Source: Heterodontus francisci
Taxonomy: Eukaryota
Length of the DNA stretch: 64,000 bases
Assembly: GCF_036365525.1 (NCBI RefSeq)
Contig: NC_090418.1
Coordinates: 10,974,856-11,038,855, forward strand
Reading direction: 5' to 3'
The translations under genes were made by a program, and so were the position numbers. Below the pieces are notes generated by a model. That model was given only the letters and a program-made list of their open reading frames with translations. It was not told the origin of the DNA and did not search any database. Below, piece by piece: positions 6,826-60,758 of this stretch (the stretch's first letter is position 1; every line of letters begins with the position of its first letter).

Positions 6826-9800
6826 TTAAAATCTAGTCAGAATTTGGAATATATCCCCCTCTGCTATAAACACATCTTTCCAATATTGTTTCCCTTTCTG
6901 AAGCCCCAGTTCCTTGGTACAGAATTCCCACATCTGGGGGGACAGCGATGGATTTACAGGCAGTAGGCAGATTACATTGCCTTGTAAAGGAGGCAGGTTT
7001 TGCAGCTGAGAGAGGAAGACACTTTTCACAGCTGATAAATCTTTCCCAAACATGTCTATTCTGTAAACATAGTTTCCCATTGGATCTCTGTAGGGAGCTG
7101 TGCCCAAACTCACAGCACGTGTGTTCTCCTTTCTATCTGCTATCCAGCTGATATCCCGCTTCAGTAAAATATCCAGGTTGCTCTCCAGTGGTTTGAATAC
7201 GCCTCCTCTGTGAACGATTCTCCTGCCCGGCAGCACTGTGTCAATTACGGTTCTGTTCAGGAATACCGACCTCACTTCATCTGGTTGCAGGGAGATCGGT
7301 TCCCAATATTCAGCCCCACTTTTCTTCATGTTACTGATCAGCTCACTCTTCAAAGTGGGAACATTTATTGATGGAAATCGAAGAGAAATCAAGGACTGGA
7401 AACAAAAGATATCGGGGAAAGGGTTAGTGATGAAATGTGAGATGAGGATTAAATATTAAATACATGAAATTTAATGCAAAGTGATACATTTTGGTCAGGA
7501 GCACGAGGAGAGGCAATACAAAATAAAGGGTCCAATTCTAAAGGGGCTTCAGGAACAGAGGGACCAGGGGGCTATGTGTACACAAAGCATTGAAAGTGGG
7601 TAATAAGGCACATGGGATCCTGGGCTTTATAAATAGAAGCATTGAGTCGAAAGACAAGGAAGTTATGAAGGATCTTTATAAAAACATTAGTTTGGCCTCA
7701 ACTGGAGTATTGTGTCCAATTCTGGACACTACATTTAGGAAGGATGTGAAGGCTTTAGAGAGGATGCAGAAAAGATTCACAAGAATGGTTCCAGGGATGA
7801 GGAACTTCAGTTACGTGGATAGATTGGAGAAGCTGGGGCTGTTCTCCTCCGAGAAGAGAAGGTTGAGAGGAGATTTGATAGAGGTGTTCAAAATGATGAG
7901 GGATCTAGACAGAGTAGATTGGGAGAAACTGTTCCTATTGGCAGAGGGGTCAAGAACGAGAGGACAATGATTTAAAGTGAATGGCAAAAGAACCAAAGGC
8001 AACATGAGGAATTATTTTATTTACACACAGCCAGTGGTTACGATCTGGAATTCAGGAGCTGAGAGGGTGATGGAGGAAATATCAGCAGGGCTACGAGGAA
8101 AGGGAGGGGAGAGTGGGACGGACTAAATTGTTCTTGCAGAGAGCCTGCACGGACATGATGGGCTGAATGGCCTCCTTCTGTGCTGTTATCATTCGATGAT
8201 TCTATATTATTCACCAGTGGAATGTTTAATAGTAAAAATATTCAGAGAATCTCTCACTATCTCCTTCTTGTAAAATATGCATTTCTGACAAACCTTTTCT
8301 GTCAAACCTCATCTGAAACTATTTTCCAGTATAACAGAATTTGTTTATTACTGGGGTTTGTTAAAATATTCCAGGTGAAATCATTATGCTAATCAATGCA
8401 AATCTATGTGAGAGTTTAGCTGCATGTTAATCGCACCTGTTTGCCTCGTGGATGAAATCCCTTGAAAATGTCTTGCCCTGTGACACCGCTCTGGTTCTTC
8501 ACCTCCGGGTACCTCGCTCTTATACACTGGAGAATGTGTTTGTAAATCAGCCGTCCAATTCCTTTGCCCCTTTCTGAAGGATGAACATTTAATGCTTCCA
8601 TTGCAGCTGTCTGTCCATCATCCACGATGTGAGCAGAAACCAGAGCGACCTGGAAATAGAGAGGAAGACAGGGAGGATTCCCACTGGTGTCCATGTATCA
8701 GAAGCACAAGTGTATAAAGCAGAGCGACTGACCTGTTCTTTCTGCCTGATGCTATGGGTTTACATTGGTGTTTCACCTGAAACACTCCAAACTTCTAAGA
8801 CTTTGCTTCAGATTTCCATCATCTGCAGATCTTTTGCCATTTGGTTTTAAAGAAAAACAAATCCAGAGTGCGGAGAGAACATTCTAGAATCCAACAGCAC
8901 AGAAGGAGGCCATTCTACCCATCAAGCCTGTGCCGGCTCTCCAATTCGTCCCACTCCAGCCTCCCACGTTTTCATTCAATTTTCTCAATGTTTGGGGCCT
9001 TGGATAGTGAGGAGAGAGGGGGTAAATGGGCAGGTATTACACCTCCTGCGATTGCAGGGGAAGGTGACGTGGGACGGGGACGAGGTGGTGGGGGGTAATG
9101 GAGGAGTGGACCAGGGTGTCACGGAGGGAACGATCCCTTCGGAATGCTGACAGGGGAAGGGAGGGGAAGATACATTTGGTAGTGGCATCACACTGGATGT
9201 GGCAGAAGTGGCGGAGGATGATCCTTTGATCTGGAGGCTGGTGGAGTGGAAAGTCTGGACAAGGGGAACCCTGTCGCGGTTCTGGGAGGGAGGGAAGGGG
9301 TGAGGGTAGAGGTACAGGAAATGGGCCGGACACAGTTGAGGGCCCTGTCAACCACAGTGAGGGGGAATCCTCAGTTGAGGGAAAAGGAAGACATATCAGA
9401 AGCACTGTCGTGGAAGGTAGCATCATCAGAGCAGATGCGTCTGAGACGGAGAAACTGGGAGAATGGAATGGAGTCCTTACAGGAGGCAGGATGTGAAGTG
9501 TAGTCGAGGTAGCTGTGGGAGTCAGTGGGCTTATAATGAATATTATAAGCTCTCGTGCTCACATCTCTGTCCTGGGATTCCAGTGAACATCAACGCAAGC
9601 TCGACGAACAGCATCTCATTTACCGATTAGACACTGCAGCCTGCCGGACTGAACATTGAATTCAATAATTTCAGAGCATGATGGGTCCCACCCCCTTCTT
9701 ATGTCTATGGAGGAGTTGAGGAAAATAGCTGAGCAGTGTGGGATCACTGTACGTGGCAAGGCTCGGAAGTCTGAACTCCTAAGGCTAGTGGCCAACCATT

Positions 9801-12800
9801 TTCCCCTTGAATCTGAAGAAGCAGAAGCAGTGTTAGAAGCAGACCCAGACAGGGTACTGCTAGAAAAGATACAATTGGATCAAAGGAAACTTGAATTAGA
9901 AGACAGGGAAAGACAGATAGAGAGAGAGAGACAGGAGAGGGAGAAAGAGAGAGCCTTCCAGAAGGAAAGGGAAGAAATAGGGAGAGAAGAGAGAGAGAAA
10001 GAAAGGCAGCAGAAGGAAAGAGAGAAAGAGGAGAGAGAGAGAGAGACAGAGAAAGAATATGCCTGAAAGAATCCAAAGAAAGAGAGCTGAAGTGGCTTGA
10101 GTTAACTAGGGGGCGACAGAGTAACCCCAGTGAAAGCATGGTCAATATGCAGGAGCATAATTCAGAGCTGGGTACGAAATTGTTAAAACTCGCCCAACTC
10201 ATTCCAAAATTCAATGAGGAAGATTGGAAACGTTTTTTGTGTCTTTTGAGAAACTGGCAAGGCAGCTAAAATGGCCAGCTGCGACCTGGTCTCTCTTAAT
10301 ACAAAGCAAGCTAACTGGAAAAGCCCATGAGGTTTATTCCTTGTTGCCAGATGAGAGTTCTCCTCGGAACATATGAATTAGTACCCGAAGCCTACAACCA
10401 AAAGTTTAGAGCCCTCAAAAAGCAAGTTAATCAAACTTATCTGGAGTTTGAAAGAAGTAAGCAGCTGACTTTTGACCAGTGGCTGGTTGCTCTTAAAATA
10501 CAGCTCAGCTATGAGACTCTCAGAGAAGTAGTTCTGTTAGAGGAATTTCAAATATCTCTCCCACTCACAATAAAGACCCAGGTAGAAGAGCAGTGGGTTC
10601 AGGGAGCCATTCGGGACGATGAGTTTGCTTTAATTTTTAAGTCGGTTTTCCCGGGGACAACCTTTCCTAATCACCCCACAAATCCGAAAGGGAAAAAGGG
10701 TGAGAAGGTGATATCTGCCCAGGCAGTCCTGGGAGAGAAAGGAAAGCAGGAGACACGGGCAGGTCTGGGGATTGGGGGGTCCTCCTCTAGCCAAAAAGGA
10801 AGGTGCTATGAGCAAGAGGACCTGCGTGCTTCCATTGTAATAAAGCAGGGCATTTTAAAGCTAACTGCTGGAAACTAAAGGGAAAACCAGTAGAGTTAAA
10901 CAGGGCACACCCGCTCAGTGAAGACGGAATCCTGATGGAAGGCACAGAACAAGCTGTAACTGCATTACGAGTGCAACCCAGGAAGCTTACTGCGGCCAGT
11001 GCAAGAAAAGGTAATAAGGTTCCTGAAGGTTATCAGGGTTTTATGTCTGAAGGGGAAGTAACCCCATACCCCTCGAGTGGAGCAAGCAAGCCCATAGTGA
11101 TTCTCAGGGATACAGGAGCCTCTAGATCCCTTTTCATGGGAAAAGGCCTGACCTTTCCCCCAGAGAGTGCAGTGAACATCACAATGGTGGTGAGTGATAT
11201 TGGAGGGCAGTGTATACCTGTACCTGTACACTGGGTAAACCTGGAGTGCGACCTGGTTTCGGGACCAGTGACCATAGGGATTGTCTCTAGTTTGCCTGTG
11301 GACAGGGTTGACCTGCTCCGAGGTAATCTGGAGGGGGCAAAGGTGCTAGCGCCCCCAGTAGTGAAAGAAAGACCGCAGGAGGTCAGAGAGACAGGGCGGT
11401 GGCAGAAGACGGTCTCCTGCAGTTTCCCTGAATGTGTAGTGGGTCAGGCCATGATCAAACCAGATCCCCCAGAGGAGACTGCATTGGTGCTGCAGGCAGA
11501 TGGCCAGGCTCGCCTGTCCGAGACTTTCTTTGGAAAGTTAGGAGACCGAGGGAATGAATTAAATGGATTTTCCCCAGCTGAGGCTTAGCGAGCTGAATCA
11601 GTATTGCGAGAGTTAGCACAGACTGCCCAGTCTGAAAGTGAAGCAGAGGGAGTCCCTGATTGCTACTATTTAAAGAATGAGGTAATGGTGAGGAAATTGA
11701 GTTCTCCTCACAGATCTGAGGGCAAGGAGTGGACCGTAGTCCACCAGTTAGTGGTGCTGCAGAGGTACCGGGGAGCAATATTAAGAAGGGCCCAAGAGAC
11801 TACCGTGGCTGTACATGCTGGTATACGAAAGACCAAAGCCCGCATAAGACAACAGTTTGACTGGCCAGAACACCACAAAGATGTGGTGGAGTACTGCAGG
11901 AGTTGTCATGTGCCAGGTTGAGGGGAAACAGCAAGCTGCAGTGAAACCTGCACCCCTAAGTCCCGTACCAGTGTTAGGAGGACCCTCCAGCAGAGGGCTG
12001 GTGAACTGTAAGGGACCCCCGCCGAGAACAAAAGGGGACAGGCAGGCACACGGTTGGCAAAAGTGTGGAAAGAGAAGGGGAAAAAGTGACCAAGAGGGCA
12101 GGTTAAAGGAAACATTGGCACCTAGAAAAGACAATTCTAATCGGCTTTAAGATTGATGAATGAATGGAAGTGAATGAGAGAAATGCATGGTTTTTCTTTC
12201 TGTATCTTATATTTCTCTCAAACCTTTCAATGAAATGTGCCGTTTTTATTCAAATCACATTTCATTCCCCTGGGTGTGGAGGTGTCATGCAGACCCCCAC
12301 CTGCCAAGAATGAGACACATATTTCACCACATGCACATTGATTTTTAAACTGTTAGTGGAGTAAAGAAAGAATTGGTTTAAGAAAAAACCACCAGACCCT
12401 TGACTGGACAGACATTTGCATAGTAACAGACTGTAATTGGAAAAGTCAAAAAGGGGCCACTCCCTGCTTCAATTTAATCCATAATGGACTTTTGATTACC
12501 AGACGTTGAAGGTGGAGAGGTTAGCATTCCATGTTAACTGCTAAGATGGCCGAATACACAAACAGACGTGGTCAGACCAGTTTGGTCACATGACTAACTG
12601 GCTTTTGGAGTTTTTTGAATTTGAACTTGCCACAGAGAATTTGAACTCAGAAAGCTGCTTGCTCCTGGATTGAAAAGACCTCGCTCCTGTTTGCTCATCT
12701 CTTTCTCACCAGCTTTGGAATCCATTGAAGACACAGGAACCCCAAGAGAGAAAAGTCTCCTACAGTGAACAAGGTTTAAGAAGAATACTGGGCCCCAATG

Positions 12801-14623
12801 AAAAGCAAGAATTGCCAACAAGCAAGAACTACCTATAAAAAGGACGACAGTGAGCTCGAAGCACAGGAACAAGAAATTCTTCTGATATTGCCTCAAACCT
12901 CTCCACTTTATTTTTCTTCTGCTCTTTTCTGTCTCTATTTGCATGTGCGTACGGCTTATGCATGCCAGTGTCGGGCGCGCCTTGTATCAGTAGTCGCTAA
13001 CCGAATTAGAGTTTAAGTTTAGGTTTTAATAAATTTCGCTTTTCTTCTTTAAACCTAAGAAAGCCTGTTTATGCTCATTTCTTTGCCTTATAATTGGAAA
13101 GTGGTGAACAAGGATTCACCAAAGGGGGAGCTCAAAACACAGTGTGTTTAAAATTAAACCCTTGTTACAATAAGACCAGATGACGGCTGAGATAAACCCC
13201 TAGACATCTTTCTCACCTGGTCGTAACAGGACAAAATTGAACAAAAACAGAGATTTGTGGTGAATGGCTGTTTTTCAGACTTGAGAGGGGTATACTGTGG
13301 TGTTCCCCAGGATTCAGGACAAGAACAACTGATGTTTTTGATACCATTAATGACGTAAAATTGCAGGTAGAGGGCACGGTTTTGGAATTTGCAGTGTATG
13401 TGAAACTTCTTCTAAATGGTACACACTGCTGCCACTGTGCATCGGTGCAGGAGGGAGTGAATGTTGAAGGTGGTGGATGGGGTGCCAATCAAGCGGACTG
13501 CTTTGTCCTGGATGGTGTCGAGCTTCTTGAGTGTTGTTGGAGCTGCACCAATCCAGGCAAATGGAGAGTATTCCATCACACTCCTGACTTGTGCCTTGTA
13601 GATGGTGGACAGGCTTTGGGGAGCCAGGAGGTGAGTTACTTCCCGCAGGATTCCTAGCCTCTGACCTGCTCTTGCAGCCACGGTATTTGTATGGCTACTC
13701 CAGTTCAATTTCTGGTCAATGGTAACCCCTGGGATGTTGATAGTGGGGGAATTCAACAACCGTATTGCCATTGAATGTCAAGGGGAGATGGTTAGATTCT
13801 CTCTTGTTTGAGATGTCATTGGCTGGCACTTGTGTGGCCCGAATGTTACTTGTCACTTATCAGCCCAAACCTGGATATTGTCCAGGTCTTGCTGCATCGG
13901 GACACGGACTGCTTCATTATCTGAGGAGACACGAATGGTGCTAAACATTGTCCAATCATCAGCGAACATCTCACCTTATGATGGAGGGAAGTTCATTAAT
14001 GAAGCAATGTCACACGGACACTTTCACCATTCCTCCACGACGATCACAGCAACAATCTCTGGGCTCTAACAATTAGTGAGATGATGGCTATCTAAAGAAA
14101 ATGGTCCTGAGCAGAACGAGATACGATATAGGCCAATTAACGAGGAACGATGCAGCCAGATTTATATCGGCTTCCATTTTTGAGGAGACTGGATCAAAAG
14201 GTGCAGATGTTGTACCCGACTGTGACAAACTAGCAACGAATCCTTTGATCGGTTTTGATCCAATTCCTCTGTAACTGACAGACAAAGTTTTACCCTCAAT
14301 ATTAATGTGTTTATTACTGATATCACAGAGTGATTTCAGCTTCACTGATTTTGGTTGTAAATTATTTTAAATGGAGACAAGTGAAATTGTGATTTAAACT
14401 GGATTGATGCAAAGTGTAATCTAATAATCTATAACAGGATTATTTTCAAAATTCTAAAAGGAACTCACCACTCGACTGTTCCGTTTTGCTAAAATGACCA
14501 TTCGGTTTCTCTCTTTGAGCCAGTGGTGGTAGGTGCTTGGCAAGTAATCTGTCTCGTTGACAAGGAGGGAGAGAACCTGCTCAAAATCCTCTTCTGTAGC
14601 CTGGGAAAAGTCCAGGTCTAACT
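6826..14623 (-). CDS. nat16: NAT16/HISAT (histidine N-acetyltransferase)-like GNAT enzyme, copy 1, core exons 14623-14469, 8649-8437, 7395-6826
   Basis: Spliced translation LDFSQATEEDFEQVL..DYLPSTYHHWL..VILAKRNSRV|VALVSAHIVDDGQTAAMEALNVHPSERGKGIG..KQ|SLISLRF..VLPG..ESNL..IDMFG..FCTKELGL..EGDI follows the NAT16 family end to end. Acetyl-CoA motif A (RGKGIG) is intact, junctions are GT-AG phase 0, and the stop is TAA at 6826-6828. Confidence 0.9.
7465..8205 (+). mobile_element. CR1 LINE 3' fragment in the last NAT16 intron; unit 2 ~39150-39890
   Basis: KAHGILGFINR..RKDVKALERMQKRFTRMVPG..RRLRGDLIEVFK, plus 3' tail gggctgaatggcctccttctgtgctg. Confidence 0.9.
8985..9681 (-). mobile_element. Penelope-like element fragment with inverted 3' piece; unit 2 ~40670-41366
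   Basis: Minus strand: YKPTDSHSYLDY.SHP.SCKDSIPFSQFLRLRRICS (PLE RT thumb) and PCNRRRCNTCPF (linker before GIY-YIG). Plus strand ~9590-9681: QRKLDEQHLIYRL..LQPAGLNIEFNNFRA* (endonuclease C-terminus). Confidence 0.85.
9695..12282 (+). mobile_element. Decayed Ty3/Gypsy LTR retrotransposon internal region, Gmr1-like (gag-protease-integrase); unit 2 ~41380-43970
   Basis: E/R/K coiled-coil gag, SCAN-like capsid region, zinc knuckle CFHCNKAGHFKANC (~10828), protease ILRDTGASRS, then directly the integrase zinc finger HAGIRKT..FDWP..CRSCH and PAPLSPVP. Multiple frameshifts; no RT remains. Confidence 0.85.
12283..13228 (+). mobile_element. 3' LTR (~946 bp) of the Gmr1-like element; unit 2 43971-44916
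   Basis: Purine-rich gggtgtggagg immediately before TGTCATG; ends CGTAACA; internal AATAAA near 13027. No 5' LTR partner is visible. Confidence 0.75.
13415..14005 (-). mobile_element. Second CR1/L2-group LINE fragment (same family as 5375-6685); unit 2 ~45103-45693
   Basis: GVTIDQKLNWSSH..YKAQVRSVMEYSP..LKKLDTIQDKAVRLI. Confidence 0.85.
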
Positions 14624-14904
14624 CTGAGTACTTGACACATAAATAAAAGAAAAAGATTAATATCACAGCTGAATATAGCATGAGGTTTGGCTTCTGATTT
14701 ACAGGCGGAATGCGATGATCCCAGGCCTCAGGGGCTGACAGTCACTCAGGCACCAAGTGCAGAGTTTCGTTTGATTCGATAGTTCGTGTCTGCGTCTATA
14801 GATGGTAATTGAGTTAACAAACATGAAGAGCAACAACACGTATCAAGCAACATTGATATATGGGGAAGGGGTGATATGCCAGTGGCAGCTGAACAGATGC
14901 TTAA

Positions 14905-15640
14905 CATTTTCCAGCCCAGGCCTGGCGATGGACGGAGAAACCAATTGTGTGCCAGTTACATTGAAGTCTGCTCCCCTTGGATTTGAGATGGGCGAAGATG
15001 TGGGTCACACCTGGAGGAACCACGGTGAGAGAGAGAAAGAGTTTGACCAGGTGCAGGGAGACAATGATGGAAATGAGAGAGTGATTGAGCAGATCGGCAG
15101 CTGCAGAAGTGTTAGAGTGAATGGATGGCCAAAGGCTAGACAATAGGGAGTTTAAAAGTGCCACTGTAAATGGAGTGTGGGAGAGTTTCATCCAGGGTGG
15201 ATATCGCAATGACTGATGTTGGAATGGAGTTGGGAGATTGCAAGTGGTGAGTGATACGAGGAAGTGATCAGAAATGGTTTTGTCTGTGATGGAGATGAAG
15301 GGATTCGAGAGACTATGAGGGACGGCAAGGTCGAGGGAGTGGCCATGGAGATGGGTCATTAATTTATATGGAAGCAGAGGTTAAGGGAGGATCGGGAGGG
15401 AGTGAAATGAGAGGAGAGAGGGTACGGGCAGTTGAGATATAGTTTGAAATCACTGAGGATGAGGAGTCACCTAGTGCAGAGGCTGAGGGAGAGACGGAGT
15501 GAGGGGATCTCAGAGTGAGGTTTGGGTGGATGGTGGAGGACGTGGATTTTAAAGAAGAGGTGATAGGGGTGGAACAAAGTGAAAGAGTAAAAGGAGGAGA
15601 AGGTGCCAGAGGGGATGGGGTGGAGACCAAGGTCTGATTT
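14905..15640 (-). mobile_element. Degenerate L2-like LINE fragment (endonuclease region); unit 2 ~46593-47328
   Basis: THLHGHS/PLDLA..ISDHFLV resembles the APE C-terminal motifs (PTH..G..LDL, SDH). Confidence 0.6.
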
Positions 15641-15691
15641 GGTGAGACCTCTGCACGACCAGCATAATGAAAGGAGCTTGATATAACTTAC

Positions 15692-15785
15692 CCCCCTGGT
15701 ACAGCACATCCTCACTCCCGGCCGATCCATCAGTCGTGTACCTGGTGTTCTCCGGTAAGTGTGGATCCCAAAACCTGTCAGTGCC
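15692..15785 (-). CDS. Candidate upstream exon of NAT16-like gene (GTDRFWDPHLPENTRYTTDGSAGSEDVLYQG); copy 2 at 47380-47473
   Basis: Non-repeat island between two L2 fragments, with a ccag acceptor and strong G|GTAAGT donor. Its phase 1 end joins the CAG acceptor at 14623 in frame. Other acceptors or frames are possible. Confidence 0.5.
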
Positions 15786-22569: not shown

Positions 22570-22593
22570 CAGCGGGCAATGTGAAGCTGCCAT
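22570..22593 (-). CDS. Candidate first coding exon of NAT16-like gene (MAASHCPL); copy 2 at 53732-53755
   Basis: ATGG start followed by CTG|GTAAGA donor, phase 0. Compatible with the 15785 acceptor (351 aa total) or an AAG acceptor at 14630 (322 aa). Not confirmable without RNA data. Confidence 0.4.
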
Positions 22594-26215: not shown

Positions 26216-26218
26216 TTG

Positions 26219-26637: not shown

Positions 26638-26681
26638 GGAGCTGGTTGGTGGGTGAAGCAATGGTTGAGTTGTTTGGTATC

Positions 26682-49300: not shown

Positions 49301-52300
49301 CACAGCTGACTGGTGAGTAAGTCCTGGTGGGTATTTTTCAACCTGGATTGAATTGTAAGTCATTGTTTTAGCAAGACTTAGTTGAATGATTTTTTTTTAC
49401 TATGATGGTCTTCTAAAGTTTTAAATTGAAAGGGTTTAGTCAAGGCAGGAGAGCTTAAAACCGTGGGTTGCTCCTCTTGCTGCATGTGGGAATCCGGGAA
49501 CATTTCCAGTCCCCGGGACCAGCATGTGTGCAGCAAGTGTGTCCAGCTGCAGGTCCTGGAAGCTCGGATTTCAGAGCTGGAACGGCGGCTGGAAACACTG
49601 TGGAGCATCCGCGAGTCTGAGAGCATTGTGGATAGCACGTATAGAGAGGTGGTCACACCGCAGCTGAAGGGACTTGAGGAAGGAAGGGAATGGGTGACCA
49701 CCAGGCAGTCCAAGAGAATCAGGCAGTGAGTTCAGGAGTCCCCTGGGGTCCCGCTTGCAAATCGGTATTCCATTTTGGAGGCTGATGAGGCTGGTTCCTC
49801 CAGGGAACGCGGACCGAGCCAAGCTTCTGGCACCACAAGCAGCCTGTCTGCACAGGAAAGGGGAAAGAGAGGAAGAGCAATAGTAATAGGGGATTCTATA
49901 GTCAGGGGAACAGATAGGCGCTACTGTGGCCGTCAACGTGACTCCAGGATGGTGTGTTGCCTCCCTGGTGCCAGGGTCCGGGATGTCACTGAATGGCTGC
50001 AGGGCATCCTGAAGGGGGAGGGTGATAAGGCAGAGGTCATGGTACATGTTGGTACCAACGACATAGGTAGAAAGAGGGATGATGTCTTGCATCAAGAATT
50101 CAGGGAGTTAGGCAGTGGACTAAAAAGCAGAACCTCTCGGGTTGTAATCTCTGGATTACTCCCAGTGCTAGCGAGTATAGAAATAGGAGAGGCAAAATTT
50201 GGTTAGGAATAGTCAGCATGGCTTTGTCAGAAGGAGGTCATGCATCACAAATTTGATTGACTTTTTTGAGCATGTGACCAGGTGTGTAGATGAGGGTAGT
50301 GCAGTTGACGTAGTTTACATGGATTTCAGCAAAGCCTTTGACAAGGTCCCACACGGGAGCAAATGCACATGGGATACAAGGTAACTTGATAAGGTGGATT
50401 CAAAATTGGCTCAGCTGTAGGAGACACAGAGTGATGACAGACGGTTGTTTTAGTGACTGGAAGCCAGTGTCCAGTGGCCTACCACAGGGATCTGTGCTGG
50501 GTCCCCGACTGTTAGTCATCTATGTCGCTAATATAAATGACAATGTGGGGGGTAGGATCAGTAAGTTCGCGGATGACACAAAGATTGGACGAGTGGTTAA
50601 CAGTGAGGTTGAGTGTCTTGGGTTAGAAAATGGGGAAAAAAGTAGCAGATGGAATTTAACCCTGAAAAGTGTGAGGTGATACACTTTGGAAGGAGTAATG
50701 TGACATGGAAGTATTCAATGAATGGCCTGACACTGGGAAGTTCCGAGGAACAAAGGGACCTTGGCGTGTTTGTCCATAGATCTCTGAAGGCAGAAGGGCA
50801 GGTTAATAGGGTGGTGAAAAAGGCATATGGGACACTTGCCTTTATCAATCGAGGCATAGATTACAAAAGCAGGAAGGTCATGTTGGAGTTGTACAGAACT
50901 TTGGTAAGGTCACAGCTGGAGTACTGTGTGCAATTCTGGTCGCCACATTATAGGAAGGATGTGATTGCACTGGAGGGGGTGCAGAGGCGATTCACCAGGA
51001 TGTTGCCTGGGATGGAATATTTACTATGAAGAGAGGTTGGATCGGCTTGGGTTGTTTTCGCTGGAGCAGAGAAGACTGAGGGGTGACCTGATTGAGGTGT
51101 ACAAGATTATGAGGGGCATGGACAGGGTGGATAGGGAGCAGCTGTTCCCCTTAGTTGAAGGGTCAGTTACTAGGGGACACATGTTTAAGGTGAGGGGCAG
51201 GAGGTTTAAGGGGGATTTGAGGAAGAACTTTTTAACCCAGAGGGTGGTGACGGTCTGGAATGCACTGCCTGGGAGGGTGGTAGAGGCGGGTTGCCTCACA
51301 TCCTTTAAAAAGTACCTGAATGAGCACTTGGCATGTCATAACATTCGAGGCTTTGGGCCAAGTGATGGCATATGGGATTAGGTAGACAGGTCAAGTGTCT
51401 TTAATGCATCGGTGCAGACTCGATGGGCCGAAGGGCCGAAGGGCCTCTTCTGCGCTGTATTATTCTGTGATTCTGTGATGTGGCACTTTGTCAAATGCCT
51501 GCTGGAAATCCAAGTACAGTGTGTCACTGGGCTCCACTTTGTCCACAGCACATGTTACTCCTTCAAAGCTCTCCAATAAATTGGTTAAACATGATTTCCC
51601 TTTAACAAGCCATGCTGACTATTCCCGATTACCTTGAGTTTTTCAAAGTGCCCAGCTATAGTCTCCTTAATGATCCATTCTAACACCTTCCCCATGACAG
51701 ACATCAAGCTAACTGGCCTATAGTTACCTGTTTTCTGCCTCCTCCCCTTCTTGAAAACAGAGGTTATATTCGCGACTTTCCAGTCTGGTGGAACCTTTCT
51801 AGAATCCAGCGAAACTTTGAAAAATTAACACCAACCCATCTATGACCTCATTAGCCACCTCTTTTAAGACCCTCGGATGAAGCCCATCAGGACGCAGGGA
51901 CTTGTCAGCCTCCCACCGCCTCACTACCCATTCCCGTCAGCTAGTTTAAATTCCACCCATTGTCCTCGGTTCCCACCATAAACTCCTCTCCCTAGCTACC
52001 AACTCCCTAGTAACTGCCTGAGGTTGAACCAGACTGTTCACAACATCAGTGTCATATTTAACCCCAAAATGAGCTTCCGACCACATCTCCGTACCATCAC
52101 TAAGACTGTAACATCAACTGACTCCGCCACTGTCTCAGCTCATCTGCTACTGAAACCCTCATCCATGCCTTCATTGCCTCTAGACTTGACCATTCCAACG
52201 CTTTCCTGTTCTACCCTCGGTAAACTTCAGCTCCGAACTCGCACCGACTCCCATTCACACTTCATCCCTGTGCTCACTGATCTACTTCGGCTCCCAGTTT

Positions 52301-55300
52301 AGCAACAACTCGATTTGAAAATTCTCATCCTTGTTTTCAAAACCCTCCACAGCCTCGCCCCTCCCTATCTCTGTAATCTGCTTCAGCTTCAAGATCCTCT
52401 GAGATAACAACACTCTTCCAATTCTGGCCTCTCCACCATTCCTGATTGTAATTGCTCCACCGTTGGTGTCGGTGCCTTCAGCTGCCGAGGTCCTAATCTC
52501 TGGAATCCTCTCCCTAACCCTCTCCGCCTCACTACCTTCCTTTCCTCCTTTAAGTCACTCCTTAAACATCGCTCTTAGACCAAGCTTTCAGTCACCTGTC
52601 CTAATATCTCTTTATATGGCTCGGTGTGGTATGTTCCTTTACAACACTCCTGTGAAGCACCTTGGCTCATTTAGATCATCGTGAAGAGAAGCGGCCCCAA
52701 CCACTACCGATAATGTCAACACTTTGTTTACCAGAACACAACCCATTCAATACGTCAATGATTCCAGGGTCTTCACCTCTATCATTCTGTTCAGAAGTCC
52801 CAACTAAGTATTGGCCACTCCCTGTTTATCATTCCTGATATCATTCCCAAAGTTACCTTTTACTATCCAAACCTGTGTCGTTTGTTTAACCGTTTCCATA
52901 TTGTTCACTATCTTATATATCACAATAAGATCACTGCTCAGGTAGCTCAAACGCCCAAGTCACTCCAATCTTTCCTCATAACTCAGACCCTACTGCCTGG
53001 GGATCAGTCTTGTGTCTCTTCTCCTCACTGCCTCCGGTGTTTGAATGCCTCACTGGTGTTTCATTGACCAGAACTGAACGTAGTCCTCAAGCTGTGATCT
53101 GACCAGAGTTTGATTACAATTTCTTGCTGTTCTGATCTATGGAGTTCAACATTGCATTAACCCTCAAATATCGAGGTGTTAGTGTGGAGAAAGAGAGGGA
53201 TAAGGGCAGGATAGAAAGGACATTGAGAAAAAGTGAGAGAGGTTTATTCATAAGGAGAAATCAAACGGACAAACTGGGAGATAGGATCAGCAGCGTGAGA
53301 GAGAAAGATGGCTTACAGAGAAAGAGAATACACAGAGCCAACGATTTCCCCTTTACTGTCTGTGTTACAGAATCTACCTGGTGTCTGGTACCCAATAAAA
53401 CAATTACCTGTAGGAAGCTGAGAGACAGCGCTCCATATTCTCGAATCTTTCTCTGTCGTGTCGAATACTGATCCAACAAACACAGCTCCCTGCGATCGAT
53501 GTGCTGGTTAATTTGAATTAGATTCAATGATATTTGGAACAGACCAGCAAACAGCACTCGGCACCCCTTTCAGAGCCTGCAGTCGAGCCAGTTATATCTC
53601 AGAGCAGAGTTTGAAACTGTAGGAAGGGCTGGTAAAAAATACCTGAGGGAATAGATTAGGATTCGTCAGACTTGGCAGCTGTACAGAAAAGCTTGGCAGT
53701 GAGTGAGACAGAATAACTGAGAGAATCTTACCAGCGGGCAATGTGAAGCTGCCATTTGAGAAAAAATGCAAAGTAACTTGTTATTCCTGATTGACTGTTC
53801 TGATAACAGCAATGTAGTTGGGAAACGAGTTTATCCTGTAACAAGCTCAGTTCAGTTCTAATGAAATAATTCCTCATCATTAGCTTCAATATGTGATCCC
53901 ACACAATGTGTCAATTTAATTCCTTTCATTACACTGCAAGGGAATTGCTCCCATTCCTCTTGGCATTTCCTCGCTGATGAAGATTTTGGGAAGGTTGTAC
54001 CCACCGGTTGCAGGCAAGCTGGTGGTTGGTCAGGCCTTTCCGTCATCAGCAGATTCTCCCACAGTGGGTACAAGTGAAGGTGTAGTGGCTGCTGGGGGTA
54101 ATTGGATCTATCCTTCTCCTCCTTTTCTCTTTCATGCTGGTTCTTCGCTCAGTCTCAGAGGTGTCTGTAGCCCTCTTGATGTAGCATCTCCAGGCATCAC
54201 GATCTATGGTCTGCACTTCCCACTGGCGATGGTCGATGTGGCACACAGAGAGGGACTTCTTCAGGGAGTCCTTGAAACATTTGCATGGGCCCCCTCTGTT
54301 CCTTTTACCAGTGGTCAGCTTCCCGTACACCATGATCTTGGGCAGGCGACTGTCGTCCATCTGACTAACCTGACCCACCCATCACAGTTGGCTTTGCAGG
54401 AGGATGGCCTTGATGCTGGTGATATTGGCTGTTTCCAGGACTTCAATGTTTGTGATGCAGTCCTGCCAGCGGATCTTGAGGATGCTGTGGACGCAGCACT
54501 GATGGAGGTGGTCTAGAAGGCGTACATGATGGCGGTATAGGACCCATGACCTGGTGCCATACAGAAGGGTGGTGAGGACTTTGAGTTTGTACACTTTGAA
54601 TTTGGTCTTTGCTCTGAGGCTGTGGTTGCTCCACACACATTGGTATAGTCTGCCAAATGTACTGTTTACTTTTGAAAGCCTATAGTCCACTTCCATGTCT
54701 ATGGTGGCATCAAACGAGATGACACTCCTCAAATAAGTAAATTGCTTGACGGCATTCAGCTCGGTTCCCTCGATGACCATGCTCGGTGGTCTATATTCTT
54801 CTTGGGGTGCAGGCTGACGCAGGTCTTCAGTTTTCTTCACACTGATTTTTAGTTCGAAGAGTTGTGCTTCCTTGGAAACGTGTTGTTATGTGTTGCAGGT
54901 CTGACCGACTGTGGGCCAGGAGAGCACAGTCATCGGCGAAAAGAAGTTCACGGATGAGTTTTTCCTGTATCTTTGTGTGAGCCTGAAGACGCCTGAGGTT
55001 CAAAAGATCTCCATCAGTCCAGCAGTGAATGTAAACTCCCTCCTCAAGGTCTTCCGTTGCCTTCTGCAGCTCAGCCAGCCAGTCAAGAGAAAAAGACAGC
55101 CGACCGTCAAGCATGCAGCACCCTTTGCAGCATCATGCTGAAAAAGATGGTGAATAGGGTCAGGGCCAGCACACATTGGAGATACGGAAGGGACTCAAGA
55201 GGTCGTTGTTTTGCTTGACTTGTCCGTACTGATTTTCATGAAACTGCTTCACCATGGCCAGGAACCTGGGTGGACATCCAAGTTTTACCAGGACTTTCCA

Positions 55301-57843
55301 AAGTCTATCTCTGTTCACAGTTTCGAATGCCTTGGTGAGGTCGACGAAAGTGACGTATGGGCCTTTGTTTTGCTCAAGACACTTTTCTTGTAATTGTCTG
55401 AGTGCAAATACCATGTCTGTGGCGCCGCTGTTTGCTCTGAAACCACACTGGCTCTCTGGGAGGTTTTCTTCCGCAATGGTAGGCACAAGCCTGCTCAAAG
55501 GTATTCCAGCCAGGATCTTCCCAGCAATAGAAAGGAGGCTGATCCCACGGTAGTTGGAGCAGTCTGATTTTTCTCCTTTGTTTTTGTACAAGGTGATGAT
55601 AACGGTAGCACGAACATCCCGTGGAATCCTGCCCTGTCCCCAGCAGGCCGTGAAACACTCCTGGAGCTTGGTGTAGAGGGCAGGGCCACCTTGTTTTAAG
55701 GCTTCGGGTGGAATTCCACCGGCTCTGGGGGCTTTGTTGTTCTTCGTCTAGTTGATGGCGGTCACAGTTTCCTCCAGAGTTGGGCTCTCACCCAGTTCTT
55801 CTTTGGCAGGCTGTTGTTGGATGTGTTTGATGGCAGTATCATGCACTGTGCACTTGGTGCTGAAGAGAGTTTCAAAGTGCTCTGACCAGCGTTCCAGGAC
55901 TGACTCCTTGTCGGTGTGTAGGGTCTTGCCATCGGTGCTCCTCAGGGGGTTTTGGATTTGATTTGCTGGTCCATAGATAGATTTTAATGTTTCGTAGAAA
56001 CTTCTTATGTGGCCAGTTTCAGCGTACAGTTGAGTTATTTCCACAAGTGTGATCCACCAGTCATTGTGGATGTTCCTCAGTTTGCATTGTAGGGTGCTGC
56101 ATGCTTGACGGTCGGCTGTCTTTTTCTCTTGACTGGCTGGCTGAGCCGGGTGACCCTGATGAGCTGACCTTTCTCCTTGTCATTTTCATCAAACCAGTCC
56201 CTATTCTTCTTGGTGCTGGGTCCGATGACCTCGTTGGAAGTATCCAATACAGAATTGCTCCCATTGGAGGAGAATCAAACATCGGAGACAGTGCGGATAA
56301 AAACCACGAGGTGGATTCCTAGCAGCGGGGTTCTGCGTTACGAGGAAAGTCGGGAGAGACTTGGGCTTTCCGACCTGTCTAAGAGGTGATCTTATGGACC
56401 AACAAAAGGTAGTAAATAATAGGGAGAAACTTTAACTGGTTTGAAATAAACTCTAAGGCCTCAGAATTGGGCTCCATCATGACGTCAGTGCCGGACTGAC
56501 AGAAGCCCTGAAGGGAAATAATGGCGGATACGGGGAAAGAGCCAGGGAATGGGACTTACTGGATTGCACTTCGGAAGAGCCGGCACAGACTCGTGCTGAA
56601 CTATCCTATGATTTCATAGACTATCCCAGCACAGAAGGAGGTCATTGTGCGACAGAGGCTGAAAATCCACAGTGCGTCTTAAATGCCAAAGTACTGAGAT
56701 GCACCCTCTCAAAATCATAATGCTTTCCTGTAGGAAACAAATGGAAAACAACAATCCAGTCCAAGACTTCAAAGTTACAGCCTGATCCTTTGTGGAGTAT
56801 CCTAGAATCATACAATTATAGAATCTTACCCTACAGATGGAGGCCATTCGGCCCATCGTGCCTGTGCTGACTCTTTAAAAGAGTTCTCCAATTTCGTCCC
56901 ACATCCCAGCATTTTCCCCATAACCCTGTAAATTAGTTCTCTTCATGTACCTGCCCAATTGCCTTTTGATAGTTCCAATGGAATCAGATTGTACCATCCT
57001 TTCAGATCATCTGTTCCAGATCAGAACAAGCCTCCGGAGGCAGGAGTTTCTCTTCATTACCTTTCGAGTTCTTTAGCCAATTATTTGAAATCGGTGTCCT
57101 CTGGTGACCCACCCACTTCCCAGAGGGAGCGGTTTCTCCCTACTTGCTCTATCAAAGCCCCTCACGATGTTGGACACCTCGATTTAAATCTCCCCTTAAC
57201 CTTCTCTGCTCTAAGGAGACCAATCCCAGTTTCTCCAGTCTCTCCACATTACTGATTCCCTCATTCCTGGTATCATCCTGAAACTCTGACCCCTCTCCAA
57301 GGCTTTGACATCCTTCCTAAAGTACGGTGCCCAGAATTGGACACAATGCTCCAACTGAGGCTTAACCAGAGAGTTGTTTGAAAAAAAGAAAGTCTTGCAT
57401 TCATATAGCACCTTTCACGAGCACAGGACATCCCAAAGCGCTTTATAGCCAATAAAACAACTTTTGAAGTGTAGTCGCTGTTGTAATGGAGGAAACATGG
57501 CAGCCAATTTGTGCACAGCAAGATCCCACAATCAGGAATGTGACATTGGCCAGATAATTCTAGATTATTGTATGAATAGTTTCCATCAAAATGAGCAATC
57601 GTGGAGCTGATTTGTGTCAGGTGACATGGGGAAACTCAGAGTCACTCCTATTGGTCTAAATAAAATAGGCCCGCCTGGCAATGAATCCATGGGTTCTGCC
57701 ATTGGGTGTAAATTGTGGAGATTGGGGCTGGTTAATTGGCTCAATGTTGCTGCTTCTGGGATCATTGGTGTCAGGTGACTGCAGGTTGTGTGTATAAAAG
57801 GAGCTGGTTGGTGGATGAAGCGATGGTTGAGTTGTTTGGTATC

Positions 57844-60758
57844 ATGGGGGATTTTGTAATGAGGGGTTTGTTCCCAGTGCTGGTGTTATTTGGAATTGTC
57901 TGTTGCTCTGATACTTGGCAACAGTTTCGAGACCAGAGGTTTCCATGGAGAAGAGTGAAAGCCACCCCTGTGCCTCAGAGAGTCCCTCCAACTGGGTCTC
58001 CCTTTGGTTCCCGTTTCCATGTGTCTGAGGGTCGAAGTGTGTCTCCACTGCAGACTGTGATGGTGCAGTGTGGAGAGCAGAACCTGCTGGTCAGGGTCCA
58101 GATGGATTTATTTGGAACCAGGCACCTGATTAAAGCTGCTGACCTGACCCTGGGGACAGCAGGTTGTCGGCCGACCAGGATCTACTCTCAGAACCACACT
58201 GTCCTCTTTGACTATGGGCTCCATGAGTGTGGCAGCAGATTACAGGTAATGAGTCCTTGACTCTTGCTCTAAGCTGGGTGTGTAGATTGTTGCTAACTCT
58301 TCATTCCAATACATTGTGAAATGTCATTGAGTTGTCTGTCTCCTGCATTATCAAACTTCAATCTTGTTAGTTGTGTATTGTACTTTTGTTTTATCCAGTC
58401 TCTCCTTCTTTCCCACCTTGTATTATCAGCCCAATTGGTTTTGAACCTTCTCTTTGGTCTCTTCAAGCTTTCCTGTTTTTCTTATCCTCATTAATGAGTC
58501 TTTTCAGTTCTACTGCCCCTCATTAAACTGAACTTGAATCTTCAGTTTCAGTCCAGTTTTATTTAATCTGGTTGACTCTTCAATGAACGGAATGAAAAAT
58601 TAGATTTGATGCCACATTTCCTGCTTTCCCTGTAACTGGATTACGTGCAGCCCTGCTTCAAGACTGGTTTATTTCTGAGCTCTAAATTGCTGTAACTTGT
58701 GGCTGTTAAGGGAATGGCCCAAAAGGACAGCTTCACTTTTATTTTGTTTAGTTCGTGTGCTCACAGTCTCTCCTTTTTACTTGTGTTAATTCTCCAGAGC
58801 AACATGCTGTACAGCCCCTCTAGCTGCTTTTAAGATTGTGCTTAAACTTCTCCTCAAATTCCATGTCCTCATCTCATTCTGATTCATTTTATGCCCAAAA
58901 AGATATCCATCCATCTTGAATATCATCCATGAGGATTTGTCTGTCTCGGGTAGAGAATTCCAAAGATTCATGGTTTTTTGAATGAAGCTTTTTTTAATCA
59001 CGGCAACTGCAAGTGACCCTGTATCTGAGTCTACACTTCTTAACTTTACTAGTCAGTTGGGGAACTGACTCAGCACTACCCTGTCAAGCCCACTAAGAAC
59101 TGTTTTGTTAGGATCACTTCATTCTTAACTCCTGTACAGAGTATTTTCCTTTTTTGGTCTGATCTCCCTGCTTCAATATGATGTCTTTCAGATGGCTGGA
59201 GATTTCCTGGTCTACACCACCCACCTGAACCACACCCCCCAGTATCATGGATCTGTCATTGTGAGAACAAATGGAGCTGTCGTTCCCATCGAGTGTCATT
59301 ATTTTAGGTCATAGATGAGTGATTTTTATTAATGAATTTTCAGTCCAATGCAAGTTCTCTGAAGTTGTCCTAAAATGACTCTCCTGTCCTTCCAGGAAGG
59401 GGAATGTGAGCAGTAACCCCATCAAGCCCACCTGGATCCCATTCAGCTCCACCAAGTCTGGAGAAGGGCATCTGTCATTCTCTCTGCGCCTAATGAATGG
59501 TATGTGATGGGTGGATGGGGAGTGATTTCCTGTACTCACCCACTGGGAGTTGTACCCACTGTCTCCAACCCTTGTCCTCTTGTACTTCAGATGACTGGCT
59601 TACAGAGCGCACCTCGACTGTCTACTACCTGGGTGACCTCATTCACATTGAGGCCTCTGTTTCAATGACCAACCACATGCCCCTGAAGCTCTACATTGAC
59701 CACTGTGTAGCTACATTGAGCCCAGACAAGGATTCCTCCCAGAGATACAGCATCATTGACTATAATGGGTAAGGAGCTCTCTGCTTTCTCCAGTTGGTCC
59801 CATCTCAATGGCTTCACTTGATTCAATTCATGTCCCTTTTTTGAATCTTTCTCCAGTTGCCTCCTGGACAGCAAAGCTGAGGACTCCTTTTCAACCTTCG
59901 TGTTGCCAAGAGACGAGCGTGAGCTGGACAAGCTCCGGTTTGACCTGGATGCTTTCCGCTTCTTTGGAGATGACCGTTCCTTGGTAAGAGGAATCTGATC
60001 ATTGGGTCCTCCATGTTTGGAGGGAGTGACTAAATGACTTGTGTTGAAATTTATCCCTCAGATTTTCATCACCTGTCACCTGAAAGTTGCTGCAGTGGAT
60101 CGGAGAGATTCCATGAACAAAGCTTGTACTTTCCAGAAGATGCAGAATGTGTAAGTTCCCTTTTCTCTCCTGAGGGATGTTGTATGGAAAGGTGATGGAC
60201 AACCTGGTTGAGCAACTTTCTCTTGTTTAGCTGGACCCCATTGGAGGAATCCAACAATGACATTTGTGCCTGTTGCCATGTGGGTAACTGTGGTGCCACA
60301 AGGGAGTTCCGATTTCTTTCCAGAGGAAGGAGGGATCTTGTACCTGAAGCTGGTAGGACATTGATCCTCTAGATGTGGGAGGTCTCCCTTTACCCCCTCT
60401 AACTGGCATGTTTGATATTGCAGAGAGTGAAGCTGGATTGAAGTGGGAGGGTGAGGCCTCACTTGGACCCCTGCTCATTCTGGATACTGAGGTGACTGAC
60501 CTGGCAACGGAGTCCTTGAATGAGGTTGAGCGAAGGCTGCAGGCGAGGTCTCCAGGTGGTGAGTTGGCTGACTGCTAGTTTCCATTTTTCCTTCAGTGTT
60601 TCCTTCACTAACCATTGGTTTCTCATTGCTTTGTAGGTGTGAAGTCTGAGGTGGTCCTGATTGTGGCCCTGACTGTGACAGCTGTCTGTCTGATCTCTGC
60701 TTCATTGATTGCTTTGTTCCTGTACAGGAAACGCAAGCAAACTCCAGTTCTCCAATGA
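57844..60758 (+). CDS. zp3: ZP3-like, copy 2; exons 57844-58245, 59192-59307, 59396-59499, 59591-59768, 59857-59983, 60062-60150, 60231-60352, 60424-60558, 60637-60758
   Basis: Same exon structure with an open frame. Manual count gives 13 amino-acid differences from copy 1. The intron 2 donor is GTCATA instead of GTAATA. Confidence 0.94.

What the first reader, a model, noticed from the sequence alone, without database searches (positions are those of the whole stretch)
6826..60758. Co-amplified head-to-head cassette: egg-coat ZP3 plus a NAT16/HISAT-like acetyltransferase, in a 31 kb tandem array
Seen: at least two full units and the start of a third. Each carries an open ZP3 gene and an open NAT16-like gene pointing away from each other, with candidate starts ~4.1 kb apart. 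Established: tandem zp2/zp3 expansions are known in fishes, and HISAT/NAT16 makes N-acetylhistidine, an abundant osmolyte-like metabolite in ectothermic vertebrates. I know of no description of the two genes amplified as a unit. Inference: this may be a dosage-amplified oocyte module coupling envelope protein with an acetylated small molecule or acetylation step. Alternatively NAT16 is a passenger. The ghost copy (separate finding) suggests this block has been duplicated more than once.
Basis: partly seen in the sequence, partly recalled or inferred. Interest (0 to 1): 0.8.

Follow-up and report, generated by a model that had tools for sequence, protein, structure and literature searches.

The report
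Shark egg-coat array with passenger acyltransferase
In the horn shark, a few copies within a large array of egg-coat (ZP3) genes were duplicated together with a neighbouring acetyltransferase-family gene that is probably a passenger, although that gene has a remodelled substrate pocket and is unlikely to make acetylhistidine.

Summary
The repeat is real: 31.2-31.7 kb units, 0.7% apart, each with an open 9-exon ZP3 (464 aa) and an open 5-exon NAT16-like gene (355 aa) in divergent orientation. The start codons are 4,408 bp apart, not 4.1 kb, with LINE remnants filling about two thirds of the gap. The window matches Heterodontus francisci RefSeq proteins. On that contig I saw 26 ZP3-like but only 7 near-identical NAT16-like proteins. 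Four ZP3s alternate with NAT16-like genes and form one supported clade, so this is a recent local sub-amplification inside an older ZP3 array. In both catsharks and the basking shark the two families were seen on different contigs. In ten other shark and ray genera ZP3-like proteins were found but no NAT16-like protein. NAT16-like as passenger is the best reading (0.7); expression could not be tested. The HISAT label fails at the active site: Trp246 is lost in 18 of 18 shark rows and kept in 14 of 14 bony-vertebrate rows, and the window's protein also lacks Tyr74. Fold and acetyl-CoA motif are kept. The shark clade is probably an acyltransferase for another amine. That is the more interesting lead.

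The parts
1..31703 (.). Repeat unit 1 (phase arbitrary; true ends lie outside the window)
   Evidence: self-BLAST; alignment
31704..62872 (.). Repeat unit 2, 0.7% diverged from unit 1
62873..64000 (.). Start of repeat unit 3
   Evidence: 96.9% to 1-1,110; 5 of 6 variable sites private to this copy
22246..22274 (-). NAT16-like copy 1, coding exon 1 (29 nt, ATG at 22,274)
   Evidence: best of 193 ATGs by nucleotide distance; weaker by amino-acid score
15692..15785 (-). NAT16-like copy 1, exon 2 (Arg-rich N-terminal extension)
   Evidence: tblastn with P0001, 64.5% over 31 aa, E 1e-7; splice sites
14469..14630 (-). NAT16-like copy 1, exon 3 (alpha1-alpha2 loop, 3 residues shorter than human; Phe63 and Tyr79 equivalents kept as F57 and Y70)
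8437..8649 (-). NAT16-like copy 1, exon 4 (GNAT core; Gly123 equivalent is A114; acetyl-CoA motif at residues 121-125)
6826..7395 (-). NAT16-like copy 1, exon 5 (second GNAT domain, Pfam Hisat_C; Trp246 equivalent is G230)
38511..53436 (-). NAT16-like copy 2 (exons 53,408-53,436; 47,380-47,473; 46,157-46,318; 40,122-40,334; 38,511-39,080), open, 2 amino-acid differences from copy 1; matches XP_067879904.1
26682..29594 (+). ZP3 copy 1, 9 exons (26,682-27,083; 28,028-28,143; 28,232-28,335; 28,427-28,604; 28,693-28,819; 28,898-28,986; 29,067-29,188; 29,260-29,394; 29,473-29,594); matches XP_067879903.1
57844..60758 (+). ZP3 copy 2, 9 exons, 13 amino-acid differences from copy 1; matches XP_067879906.1
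26380..26681 (+). ZP3 proximal promoter-like region: 6 reverse CCAAT boxes, 2 CAGGTG E-boxes, TATA at 26,631; 3 substitutions in unit 2
   Evidence: 6 observed, shuffle mean 1.4, 8 of 5,000 shuffles reach 6; densest CCAAT cluster in unit 1
22884..25017 (-). Broken LINE (RTE-type by recall) between the two start codons
   Evidence: ORF pieces; Pfam RVT_1 E 1e-15 at 24,001-24,585
25627..26215 (-). LINE 3' remnant (CR1-type by recall) between the two start codons
   Evidence: multiple intra-window copies
473..540 (+). Ghost ZP3 3' tail (end of last exon, stop, AATAAA), abutting a LINE remnant at 269-464; repeated at 32,176-32,243 and, by offset, about 63,363-63,430
   Evidence: 85.5% over 69 columns, E 2e-16
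9653..12150 (+). Broken Ty3/Gypsy-type retrotransposon remnant in NAT16-like intron 3, copied with the unit
   Evidence: Pfam SCAN, zf-CCHC, Integrase_H2C2
17219..17746 (.). 528-bp LINE piece present in unit 1 only (NAT16-like intron 1)

Best explanation
This is a recent, horn-shark-level segmental amplification inside a much larger and older ZP3 tandem array. ZP3 dosage drives the array: each copy carries its own promoter and encodes a normal secreted, furin-cleaved egg-envelope subunit (structure shown; dosage selection inferred from teleost precedent). A copy of a nearby NAT16-like gene came to lie among the ZP3 genes. Unequal crossing-over, helped by abundant LINEs, then copied a 31 kb block holding one ZP3, one NAT16-like gene, a ZP3 tail remnant and several dead retroelements at least four times (block and copy order shown; mechanism inferred). 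The NAT16-like gene is a passenger in this block. It is a double-GNAT acyl-CoA transferase of a shark-specific clade that probably still binds acetyl-CoA but acylates an amine other than histidine (fold and residue losses shown; activity and substrate inferred).
For: (1) Identity: unit-1 ZP3 has 0 mismatches to XP_067879903.1, unit-2 ZP3 has 1 to XP_067879906.1; NAT copies have 0 mismatches to XP_067879902.1 and 904.1 over residues 42-355. Accession order equals window order for these four. (2) Of the 41 numbers XP_067879877-917, 26 are ZP3-like, 7 NAT16-like and 8 were not seen. The alternating run is Z899 N900 Z901 N902 Z903 N904 (905 unseen) Z906 N907. (3) Z899, 901, 903, 906 form a clade with support 95/91, one of only 2 starred branches among 25 in a tree of 26 horn-shark ZP3s plus 2 outgroups. 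(4) A diverged NAT16-like paralogue (XP_067879865.1, 74% identity) lies 12 numbers before the first ZP3 seen and groups with the single sevengill gene (96/85). (5) Other sharks: S. canicula NAT16-like on a 16.1 Mb contig and ZP3 on 226 Mb; S. torazame 36.3 Mb and 376 Mb; Cetorhinus 13.0 Mb and 29.2 Mb or small scaffolds. ZP3-like proteins were found in Mustelus, Chiloscyllium, Hemiscyllium, Stegostoma, Rhincodon, Pristiophorus, Hypanus, Pristis, Mobula, Hemitrygon and Amblyraja, with no NAT16-like hit from them. (6) Dead retroelements and the ZP3 ghost were copied just as faithfully as the genes. (7) Promoter motifs cluster at ZP3 only. (8) Tandem ZP3 amplification with oocyte-only expression is documented in catfish (PMC13704971 abstract and passages). 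(9) Enzyme: AlphaFold model of XP_067879884.1 (98% identical to unit 2 over residues 42-355; pLDDT 86) matches human HisAT at TM 0.80, E 4e-34. Arg/Gly/Gly of the acetyl-CoA motif are kept in 18, 17 and 18 of 18 shark rows. Trp246 is kept in 0 of 18 shark rows and 14 of 14 bony-vertebrate rows.
Against: All 7 near-identical NAT16-like RefSeq models have an open core, and the two window copies differ by only 2 synonymous and 2 non-synonymous changes (omega 0.30, binomial p 0.23, not significant). Youth explains this as well as selection does, but selection is not excluded. NAT coding DNA differs less between units than ZP3 coding DNA (4 of 1,068 against 17 of 1,395, Fisher p 0.026). N883-885 share intron and flank retroelement pieces with the window and Z880 shares the ZP3 5' flank, so the pair may have been amplified in two places, which a selected module would also predict. 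In the sevengill shark both families are on one 29.8 Mb contig, so linkage may be old. Contig lengths and accession order are proxies for position; no DNA of other units or species was available. Only 15 of 33 and 15 of 38 members of the two largest non-horn-shark ZP3 clusters were listed. Pseudogenes have no protein accession, so broken NAT16-like or ZP3 copies are invisible here. One search scored only the top 8,000 candidates and missed human NAT16, so absences are soft. 10 of 16 shark rows that cover the loop have a Tyr six residues before the Tyr79 equivalent that might stand in for Tyr74; the window has Leu there.
Confidence: 0.7

Rival explanations
1. Selected oocyte module: the divergent pair is co-regulated, and NAT16-like dosage supplies an acylated small molecule or an acylation step during egg-envelope formation.
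For: At least four alternating pairs and three more NAT copies nearby. Both genes open in both window units. Starts 4.4 kb apart, within enhancer range of the ZP3 CCAAT/E-box cluster. The inter-start region is among the least diverged parts of the unit (19 of 4,407, 0.43%).
Against: 22 of 26 ZP3-like proteins seen are outside the alternating run. The families are unlinked in three other sharks and NAT16-like was not found in eleven ZP3-bearing genera. About 2.7 of the 4.4 kb are LINE remnants. The low divergence there is matched by 1-6,825 (0.41%). The enzyme has no hydrophobic signal-like stretch (max 19-residue hydropathy 1.15), so it should not meet ZP3 in the secretory path.
Confidence: 0.12
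2. Independent dosage or diversifying selection on the NAT16-like gene itself, unrelated to eggs; ZP3 and NAT16-like each gain from the same duplications for separate reasons.
For: Catsharks expanded the same clade away from ZP3: 7 genes in S. canicula and at least 6 in S. torazame by accession and isoform labels, with isoform series that imply transcript support. The beta-bulge position (human Gly123) takes six different residues in 18 shark rows but is Gly in 14 of 14 bony rows. The first GNAT domain is less conserved among sharks (51-63%) than the second (72-88%), the reverse of the pattern against bony fish (38-41% and 33-36%).
Against: The horn-shark copies are nearly identical (96-100%), with no pocket diversification. 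Horn-shark exon 1 has 6 of 10 residues changed against catshark and has lost Gly2, which looks relaxed. Relaxed constraint or gene conversion of exon 5 would give the same domain pattern.
Confidence: 0.13
3. Assembly artefact: the two units are two haplotypes of one locus placed in tandem.
For: 99.3% identity, with one identical run of 2,150 bp. Read depth could not be checked.
Against: Three copies overlap in the window and differ. Four distinct ZP3 proteins sit in the run, 4-11 mismatches from the window copies over residues 73-420, more than two alleles can give. Differences look biological: 133 transitions, 90 transversions, 40 CpG-type of 223, plus a 528-bp indel.
Confidence: 0.05

Closest known systems
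Tandem zp3 arrays of fishes (catfish, PMC13704971; lineage-specific ZP duplications, PMC6262864)
   Same: Dozens of tandem ZP3-like genes, high identity, normal ZP3 anatomy; 20-22 ZP3 genes in catfish against 26 seen here.
   Different: Here a sub-run carries a non-ZP enzyme gene in every unit. The passages read do not describe shark arrays; PMC6262864 has no hit for 'shark'.
Human HisAT/NAT16 (PDB 9EMD, 9EMP, 9EN3; PMC12219266) and bony-fish HISAT
   Same: Double-GNAT fold (TM 0.80), Pfam Hisat_C, acetyl-CoA motif, Phe63, Asp78, Tyr79, Leu124 equivalents.
   Different: About 32% identity. Trp246 to Gly, three-residue deletion in the alpha1-alpha2 loop with no Tyr74, Gly123 to Ala, Arg161 and Asp163 lost; Arg-rich, acid-poor N-terminal extension. 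Human NAT16 lies between MOGAT3 and VGF (PMC12219266 section 10), not beside ZP3.
Shark 'histidine N-acetyltransferase-like' RefSeq proteins (Heptranchias, Scyliorhinus, Carcharodon, Cetorhinus)
   Same: One clade, support 100/100, stem 0.79; shared pocket changes and N-terminal extension.
   Different: Catshark copies are expanded without ZP3 and are diversified; horn-shark in-array copies are near-identical and interleaved with ZP3. The names are automatic annotation; I found no functional study.
Passenger genes in segmental duplications (general concept, recalled)
   Same: A neighbour and dead repeats are copied with a dosage-driven gene in part of an array.
   Different: No specific test of neutrality was possible with two sequenced units.

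Membership tests
ZP3 (ZPC) egg-coat subunit | ZP-N plus ZP-C module with 4+4 cysteines | tested here: met
   Pfam ZP-N E 1e-7 and ZP-C E 2e-13; Cys 76, 108, 129, 169, 246, 268, 314, 331 in both copies
ZP3 (ZPC) egg-coat subunit | ZP3-specific four-cysteine subdomain after ZP-C (feature recalled) | tested here: met
   Cys 351, 353, 354, 359
ZP3 (ZPC) egg-coat subunit | Signal peptide, furin site, C-terminal transmembrane helix | tested here: met
   Hydrophobic spans 1-24 and 424-456; R-x-R-R at 370 (hydropathy only, no dedicated predictor)
ZP3 (ZPC) egg-coat subunit | Oocyte or ovary expression and incorporation into the envelope | not testable with these tools
   Promoter-like motifs only
ZP3 subfamily (ZP3.1, 3.2 or 3.3 of PMC6262864) | Phylogenetic and syntenic placement | not tested
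   Best non-chondrichthyan hits were turtle ZP3-like proteins at 43-56% over exon 1; no subfamily tree built
HisAT-type double-GNAT protein (NAT16 family) | Double-GNAT fold closest to HisAT; Hisat_C domain | tested here: met
   Foldseek top 3 are HisAT, TM 0.80, next best TM about 0.5 (model of a 98% identical sister copy); PF24066 99 bits against cutoff 27
HisAT-type double-GNAT protein (NAT16 family) | Acetyl-CoA binding motif in the first GNAT domain | tested here: met
   Residues 121-125 align with the human motif
Histidine N-acetyltransferase (EC 2.3.1.33) proper | Trp246 stacking on the histidine ring | tested here: not met
   Gly in the window; 0 of 18 shark rows keep Trp
Histidine N-acetyltransferase (EC 2.3.1.33) proper | Tyr74 stacking and carboxylate contact | tested here: not met
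   Loop three residues shorter and no aromatic residue between F57 and Y70 in the window; other sharks often keep a nearby Tyr (10 of 16)
Histidine N-acetyltransferase (EC 2.3.1.33) proper | Tyr79, Phe63 and the Gly123-Leu124 beta-bulge (oxyanion hole) | tested here: inconclusive
   Tyr79, Phe63 and Leu124 kept; Gly123 is Ala. The contact is through backbone amides (PMC12219266 sections 9, 11), so Ala may be tolerated. Thr160 alignment is ambiguous by one column.
Histidine N-acetyltransferase (EC 2.3.1.33) proper | Acetylation of L-histidine in vitro | not testable with these tools
   needs an assay
Bidirectional (head-to-head, shared promoter) gene pair | Transcription starts within about 1 kb sharing one promoter (definition recalled) | tested here: not met
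   Start codons 4,408 bp apart with about 2.7 kb of LINE remnants between; transcription starts themselves are unknown, so an upstream untranslated exon is not excluded
Conserved ZP3-NAT16 module in sharks | Adjacency kept across lineages | tested here: not met

The most novel reading that the evidence does not exclude
Sharks may have turned NAT16 into a different enzyme family: an acyl-CoA:amine N-acyltransferase with an opened pocket (Trp246 to Gly, shortened loop) and an Arg-rich, transit-peptide-like N-terminus, perhaps mitochondrial like the GLYATs, which catsharks diversified at the beta-bulge. In the horn shark, capture 4.4 kb from a ZP3 promoter would have given it oocyte expression, and the pair would be under dosage selection to load eggs with the new acyl-amine. 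I put the substrate shift alone at about 0.7, and the full chain including a selected oocyte role at about 0.1. No canonical Trp246-bearing shark protein appeared, but that search is incomplete.
Probability: 0.1. Interest if true: 0.7.

Novelty: new variant of a known kind. Interest (0 to 1): 0.35.

Why it matters
The cassette itself is a modest result: an apparently undescribed but probably accidental pairing (0 papers in the library hold both 'NAT16' and 'ZP3'; most subscription papers are not searched). Two side results have more value. Shark ZP3 arrays are very large (26 proteins seen on one horn-shark contig; clusters of 33 and 38 near-identical catshark and sevengill proteins), and I found no paper on them. 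Shark 'histidine N-acetyltransferase-like' proteins lack the histidine-binding tryptophan that is conserved from human to an archaeal homologue (PMC12219266 section 10), so the annotation is probably wrong and an unknown acyl-amine product is predicted. That is directly testable with one enzyme screen. It bears on why acetylhistidine is described for teleosts, amphibians and reptiles (PMC4496688 introduction; sharks are not mentioned there). RefSeq models of the horn-shark copies also miss the real first two exons.

Tried and rejected
First ZP3 exon model had wrong splice offsets and gave stops; corrected. Single-sequence AlphaFold of P0168 failed (pLDDT 37) and was not used. The bacterial promoter and terminator scan is not applicable. 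Rfam: 0 hits. Tandem Repeats Finder: only microsatellites. No ghost of any NAT16-like exon and no ghost of ZP3 exons 1-8 in the first 33 kb. Positive selection on ZP3 between units: omega 1.0 (13 non-synonymous, 4 synonymous), no signal; at 10 of the 13 sites both residues also occur in other paralogues, which points to gene conversion or shuffling. Alignment A1 misplaced exon 2 and was not used. The ESM Atlas gave only Hisat_C and GNAT clusters. The 50%-representative search (268 hits at E up to 0.001) returned unnamed proteins; I read only the table, so it did not settle whether sharks, rays or chimaeras keep a canonical NAT16. Supplement term search of PMC12219266 for shark names: 0 hits in 6 files; its alignment figures are not visible as text and could include a shark. 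A paper for CCAAT boxes in zebrafish zp3 promoters was not found, so that precedent is recalled only; Figla regulating zp2 and zp3 is from a passage of PMC8227731. No complex prediction was run, as no binding is claimed. Metagenome and viral contig collections were not searched; the bacterial genome, phage and plasmid collections are irrelevant here.

Full report
1. The repeat. Self-BLAST shows two full units and 1.1 kb of a third, with a period of 31.2-31.7 kb. A global alignment gives 229 mismatches in 32,242 columns and 25 indels, including a 528-bp LINE piece found only in unit 1. Of 223 substitutions within the first unit, 133 are transitions and 40 are CpG-type. Where three copies overlap they all differ. 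This looks like real duplication; read depth was not available.

2. The genes. ZP3 has nine exons at 26,682-29,594 and 57,844-60,758, canonical splice sites and 464 codons. It has signal-like and transmembrane spans, 8 ZP cysteines, the extra four-cysteine cluster and a furin site. The NAT16-like gene has five coding exons and 355 codons in both units. Exon 2 was found by tblastn with shark homologues. Exon 1 at 22,274 is the best of 193 ATGs by nucleotide distance to the homologous N-terminus and has the right split codon and donor, though it scored poorly by amino-acid matrix. The start codons are therefore 4,408 bp apart. About 2.7 kb of that gap is LINE remnant. ZP3 has 6 reverse CCAAT boxes (shuffle mean 1.4, p 0.0016), 2 E-boxes and a TATA box within 300 bp; 22,275-22,880 has no CCAAT or TATA match. 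That such motifs drive oocyte expression is partly recalled; Figla control of zp2 and zp3 is from a passage of PMC8227731. A 68-bp ghost of a ZP3 3' end lies in each unit, so the block was cut out of an older ZP3 array.

3. Source and extent. The window's four genes match Heterodontus francisci XP_067879902, 903, 904 and 906 in that order, so accession order tracks position here. Of 41 numbers from 877 to 917 on this 19.5 Mb contig, 26 are ZP3-like, 7 NAT16-like and 8 unseen. The alternating run is Z899 N900 Z901 N902 Z903 N904 Z906 N907, and those four ZP3s form a clade (95/91) among 26 (only 2 of 25 inner branches are starred). N883-885 are three more copies (96-98%) that share intron repeats with the window, and Z880 shares the ZP3 5' flank. 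A diverged paralogue, 865 (74%), lies just outside. The models' invented N-termini come from retroelement DNA, which suggests little transcript support in the annotation (inference).

4. Other sharks. ZP3-like expansions are general (80 hits; clusters of 33 and 38 members, 15 of each listed). NAT16-like proteins were found only in Heterodontus, Heptranchias, two Scyliorhinus, Carcharodon and Cetorhinus. They were seen on a different contig from ZP3 in both catsharks and Cetorhinus, and on the same 29.8 Mb contig in Heptranchias, where the nearest listed ZP3 accession is 85 numbers away. No Carcharodon ZP3 was among the hits. Catsharks expanded NAT16-like on its own, to 7 and at least 6 genes. 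These are proxies from protein tables; one search scored only 8,000 candidates and missed human NAT16.

5. The enzyme. In human HisAT the histidine ring stacks between Tyr74 and Trp246, the carboxylate binds Tyr74, Tyr79 and the Gly123 amide, and Gly123-Leu124 form the oxyanion hole (PMC12219266, section 9 part 1 and section 11 part 1). Alignments to 9EMD and 9EMO place Gly230 at Trp246, Ala114 at Gly123, and a three-residue deletion in the Tyr74 loop, with Phe63, Tyr79 and the acetyl-CoA motif kept. In a 32-row alignment (18 shark, 14 bony vertebrate; left out: unnamed hits, redundant isoforms, the partial P0017, most teleosts, human), Trp246 is kept in 14 of 14 bony and 0 of 18 shark rows. 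Gly123 is kept in 14 of 14 and 8 of 18. Ten of 16 shark rows covering the loop keep a Tyr that could replace Tyr74; the window does not. Sharks form one clade (100/100) on a long stem; the tree is midpoint-rooted, and its grouping with Latimeria and Ambystoma is flagged as a possible long-branch join, so orthologue or paralogue status is open. A model of the 98% identical copy 884 matches HisAT at TM 0.80. Shark N-termini carry 6-8 basic and 0-2 acidic residues in about 40, unlike the short N-termini of four bony fish; this suggests a transit peptide, a lead only. So it works like HisAT (acyl-CoA transfer to an amine in a double-GNAT cleft, inferred) but fails two defining residue tests for histidine specificity.

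6. Selection. Between units ZP3 has 13 non-synonymous and 4 synonymous changes (omega 1.0), and NAT16-like has 2 and 2 (omega 0.30, p 0.23). Neither is informative on constraint. At 10 of 13 ZP3 sites both residues occur in other paralogues, as expected from conversion.

7. Verdict. Shown: the repeat, both open genes, at least four alternating pairs in a clade, majority of ZP3 copies outside it, no conserved adjacency in three other sharks, altered enzyme pocket. Inferred: ZP3 dosage as driver, unequal crossing-over, passenger status (0.7), substrate shift (about 0.7). A selected oocyte module stays possible (0.12) until ovary RNA-seq is mapped.

8. Literature seen. PMC12219266: abstract, passages, section 9 part 1 of 2, section 10 whole, section 11 part 1 of 2, term search of 6 supplements. 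PMC4496688, PMC8455134, PMC6262864, PMC8227731: passages only. PMC13704971: abstract and passages. Yamada and Arikawa 2014: title in a reference list only. Searches for prior description; none returned a listing on this pairing or on shark NAT16-like function. The library lacks most subscription papers.

Noticed in passing
window 9,653-12,150 (+) and 41,338-43,838 (+): Broken Ty3/Gypsy-type retrotransposon remnant with SCAN, CCHC and integrase zinc-binding domains in NAT16-like intron 3; no long terminal repeat pair of 100 bp or more. The unit-2 copy has a 1-bp indel near 42,359.
   Followed up: partly
window 18,251-20,227 (+): LINE with an esterase-like (GDSL/OSK, below cutoff) ORF1 piece and reverse-transcriptase pieces in NAT16-like intron 1.
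   Followed up: no
window 22,246-22,274 and 15,692-15,785 (-): Shark NAT16-like N-terminus is Arg-rich and acid-poor; catshark and sevengill proteins start Met-Gly with Ser6 (myristoylation-like, motif recalled), while the horn-shark copy has lost Gly2.
   Followed up: partly
P0001, P0003-P0013, P0171 against window NAT16-like: The catalytic first GNAT domain is less conserved among sharks (51-63%) than the second (72-88%), the reverse of the pattern against bony fish.
   Followed up: partly
RefSeq XP_067879883-885, 900, 902, 904, 907: All near-identical horn-shark NAT16-like models use retroelement-derived 5' exons and miss exons 1-2; three add a spurious 35-aa exon from 12,892-12,996. Model 865 reads exon 2 in another frame.
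   Followed up: yes
P0020: A ZP3 85% identical to exon 1 is deposited under Salmonella enterica on a 1.4 kb contig; likely a mislabelled or contaminating shark sequence.
   Followed up: no
P0113 and P0167: Catshark models with an internal repeat of first-domain exons (478 and 414 aa); real exon duplication or fused neighbouring genes.
   Followed up: no
P0017 (Carcharodon, 274 Mb contig): A second, degenerate white-shark NAT16-like model on a different chromosome from P0010.
   Followed up: no
window 16,001-17,000 and 28,001-32,000: Unit divergence is patchy: 2.9% at 16-17 kb and 1.1-1.8% at 28-32 kb, against 0% at 9-11 kb, consistent with mosaic gene conversion.
   Followed up: partly
window 16,220-16,783, 31,409-31,970, 47,906-48,470, 62,579-63,153: A roughly 560-bp GC-rich repeat occurs twice per unit at 89-93% identity; not identified; a possible substrate for unequal crossing-over.
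   Followed up: no
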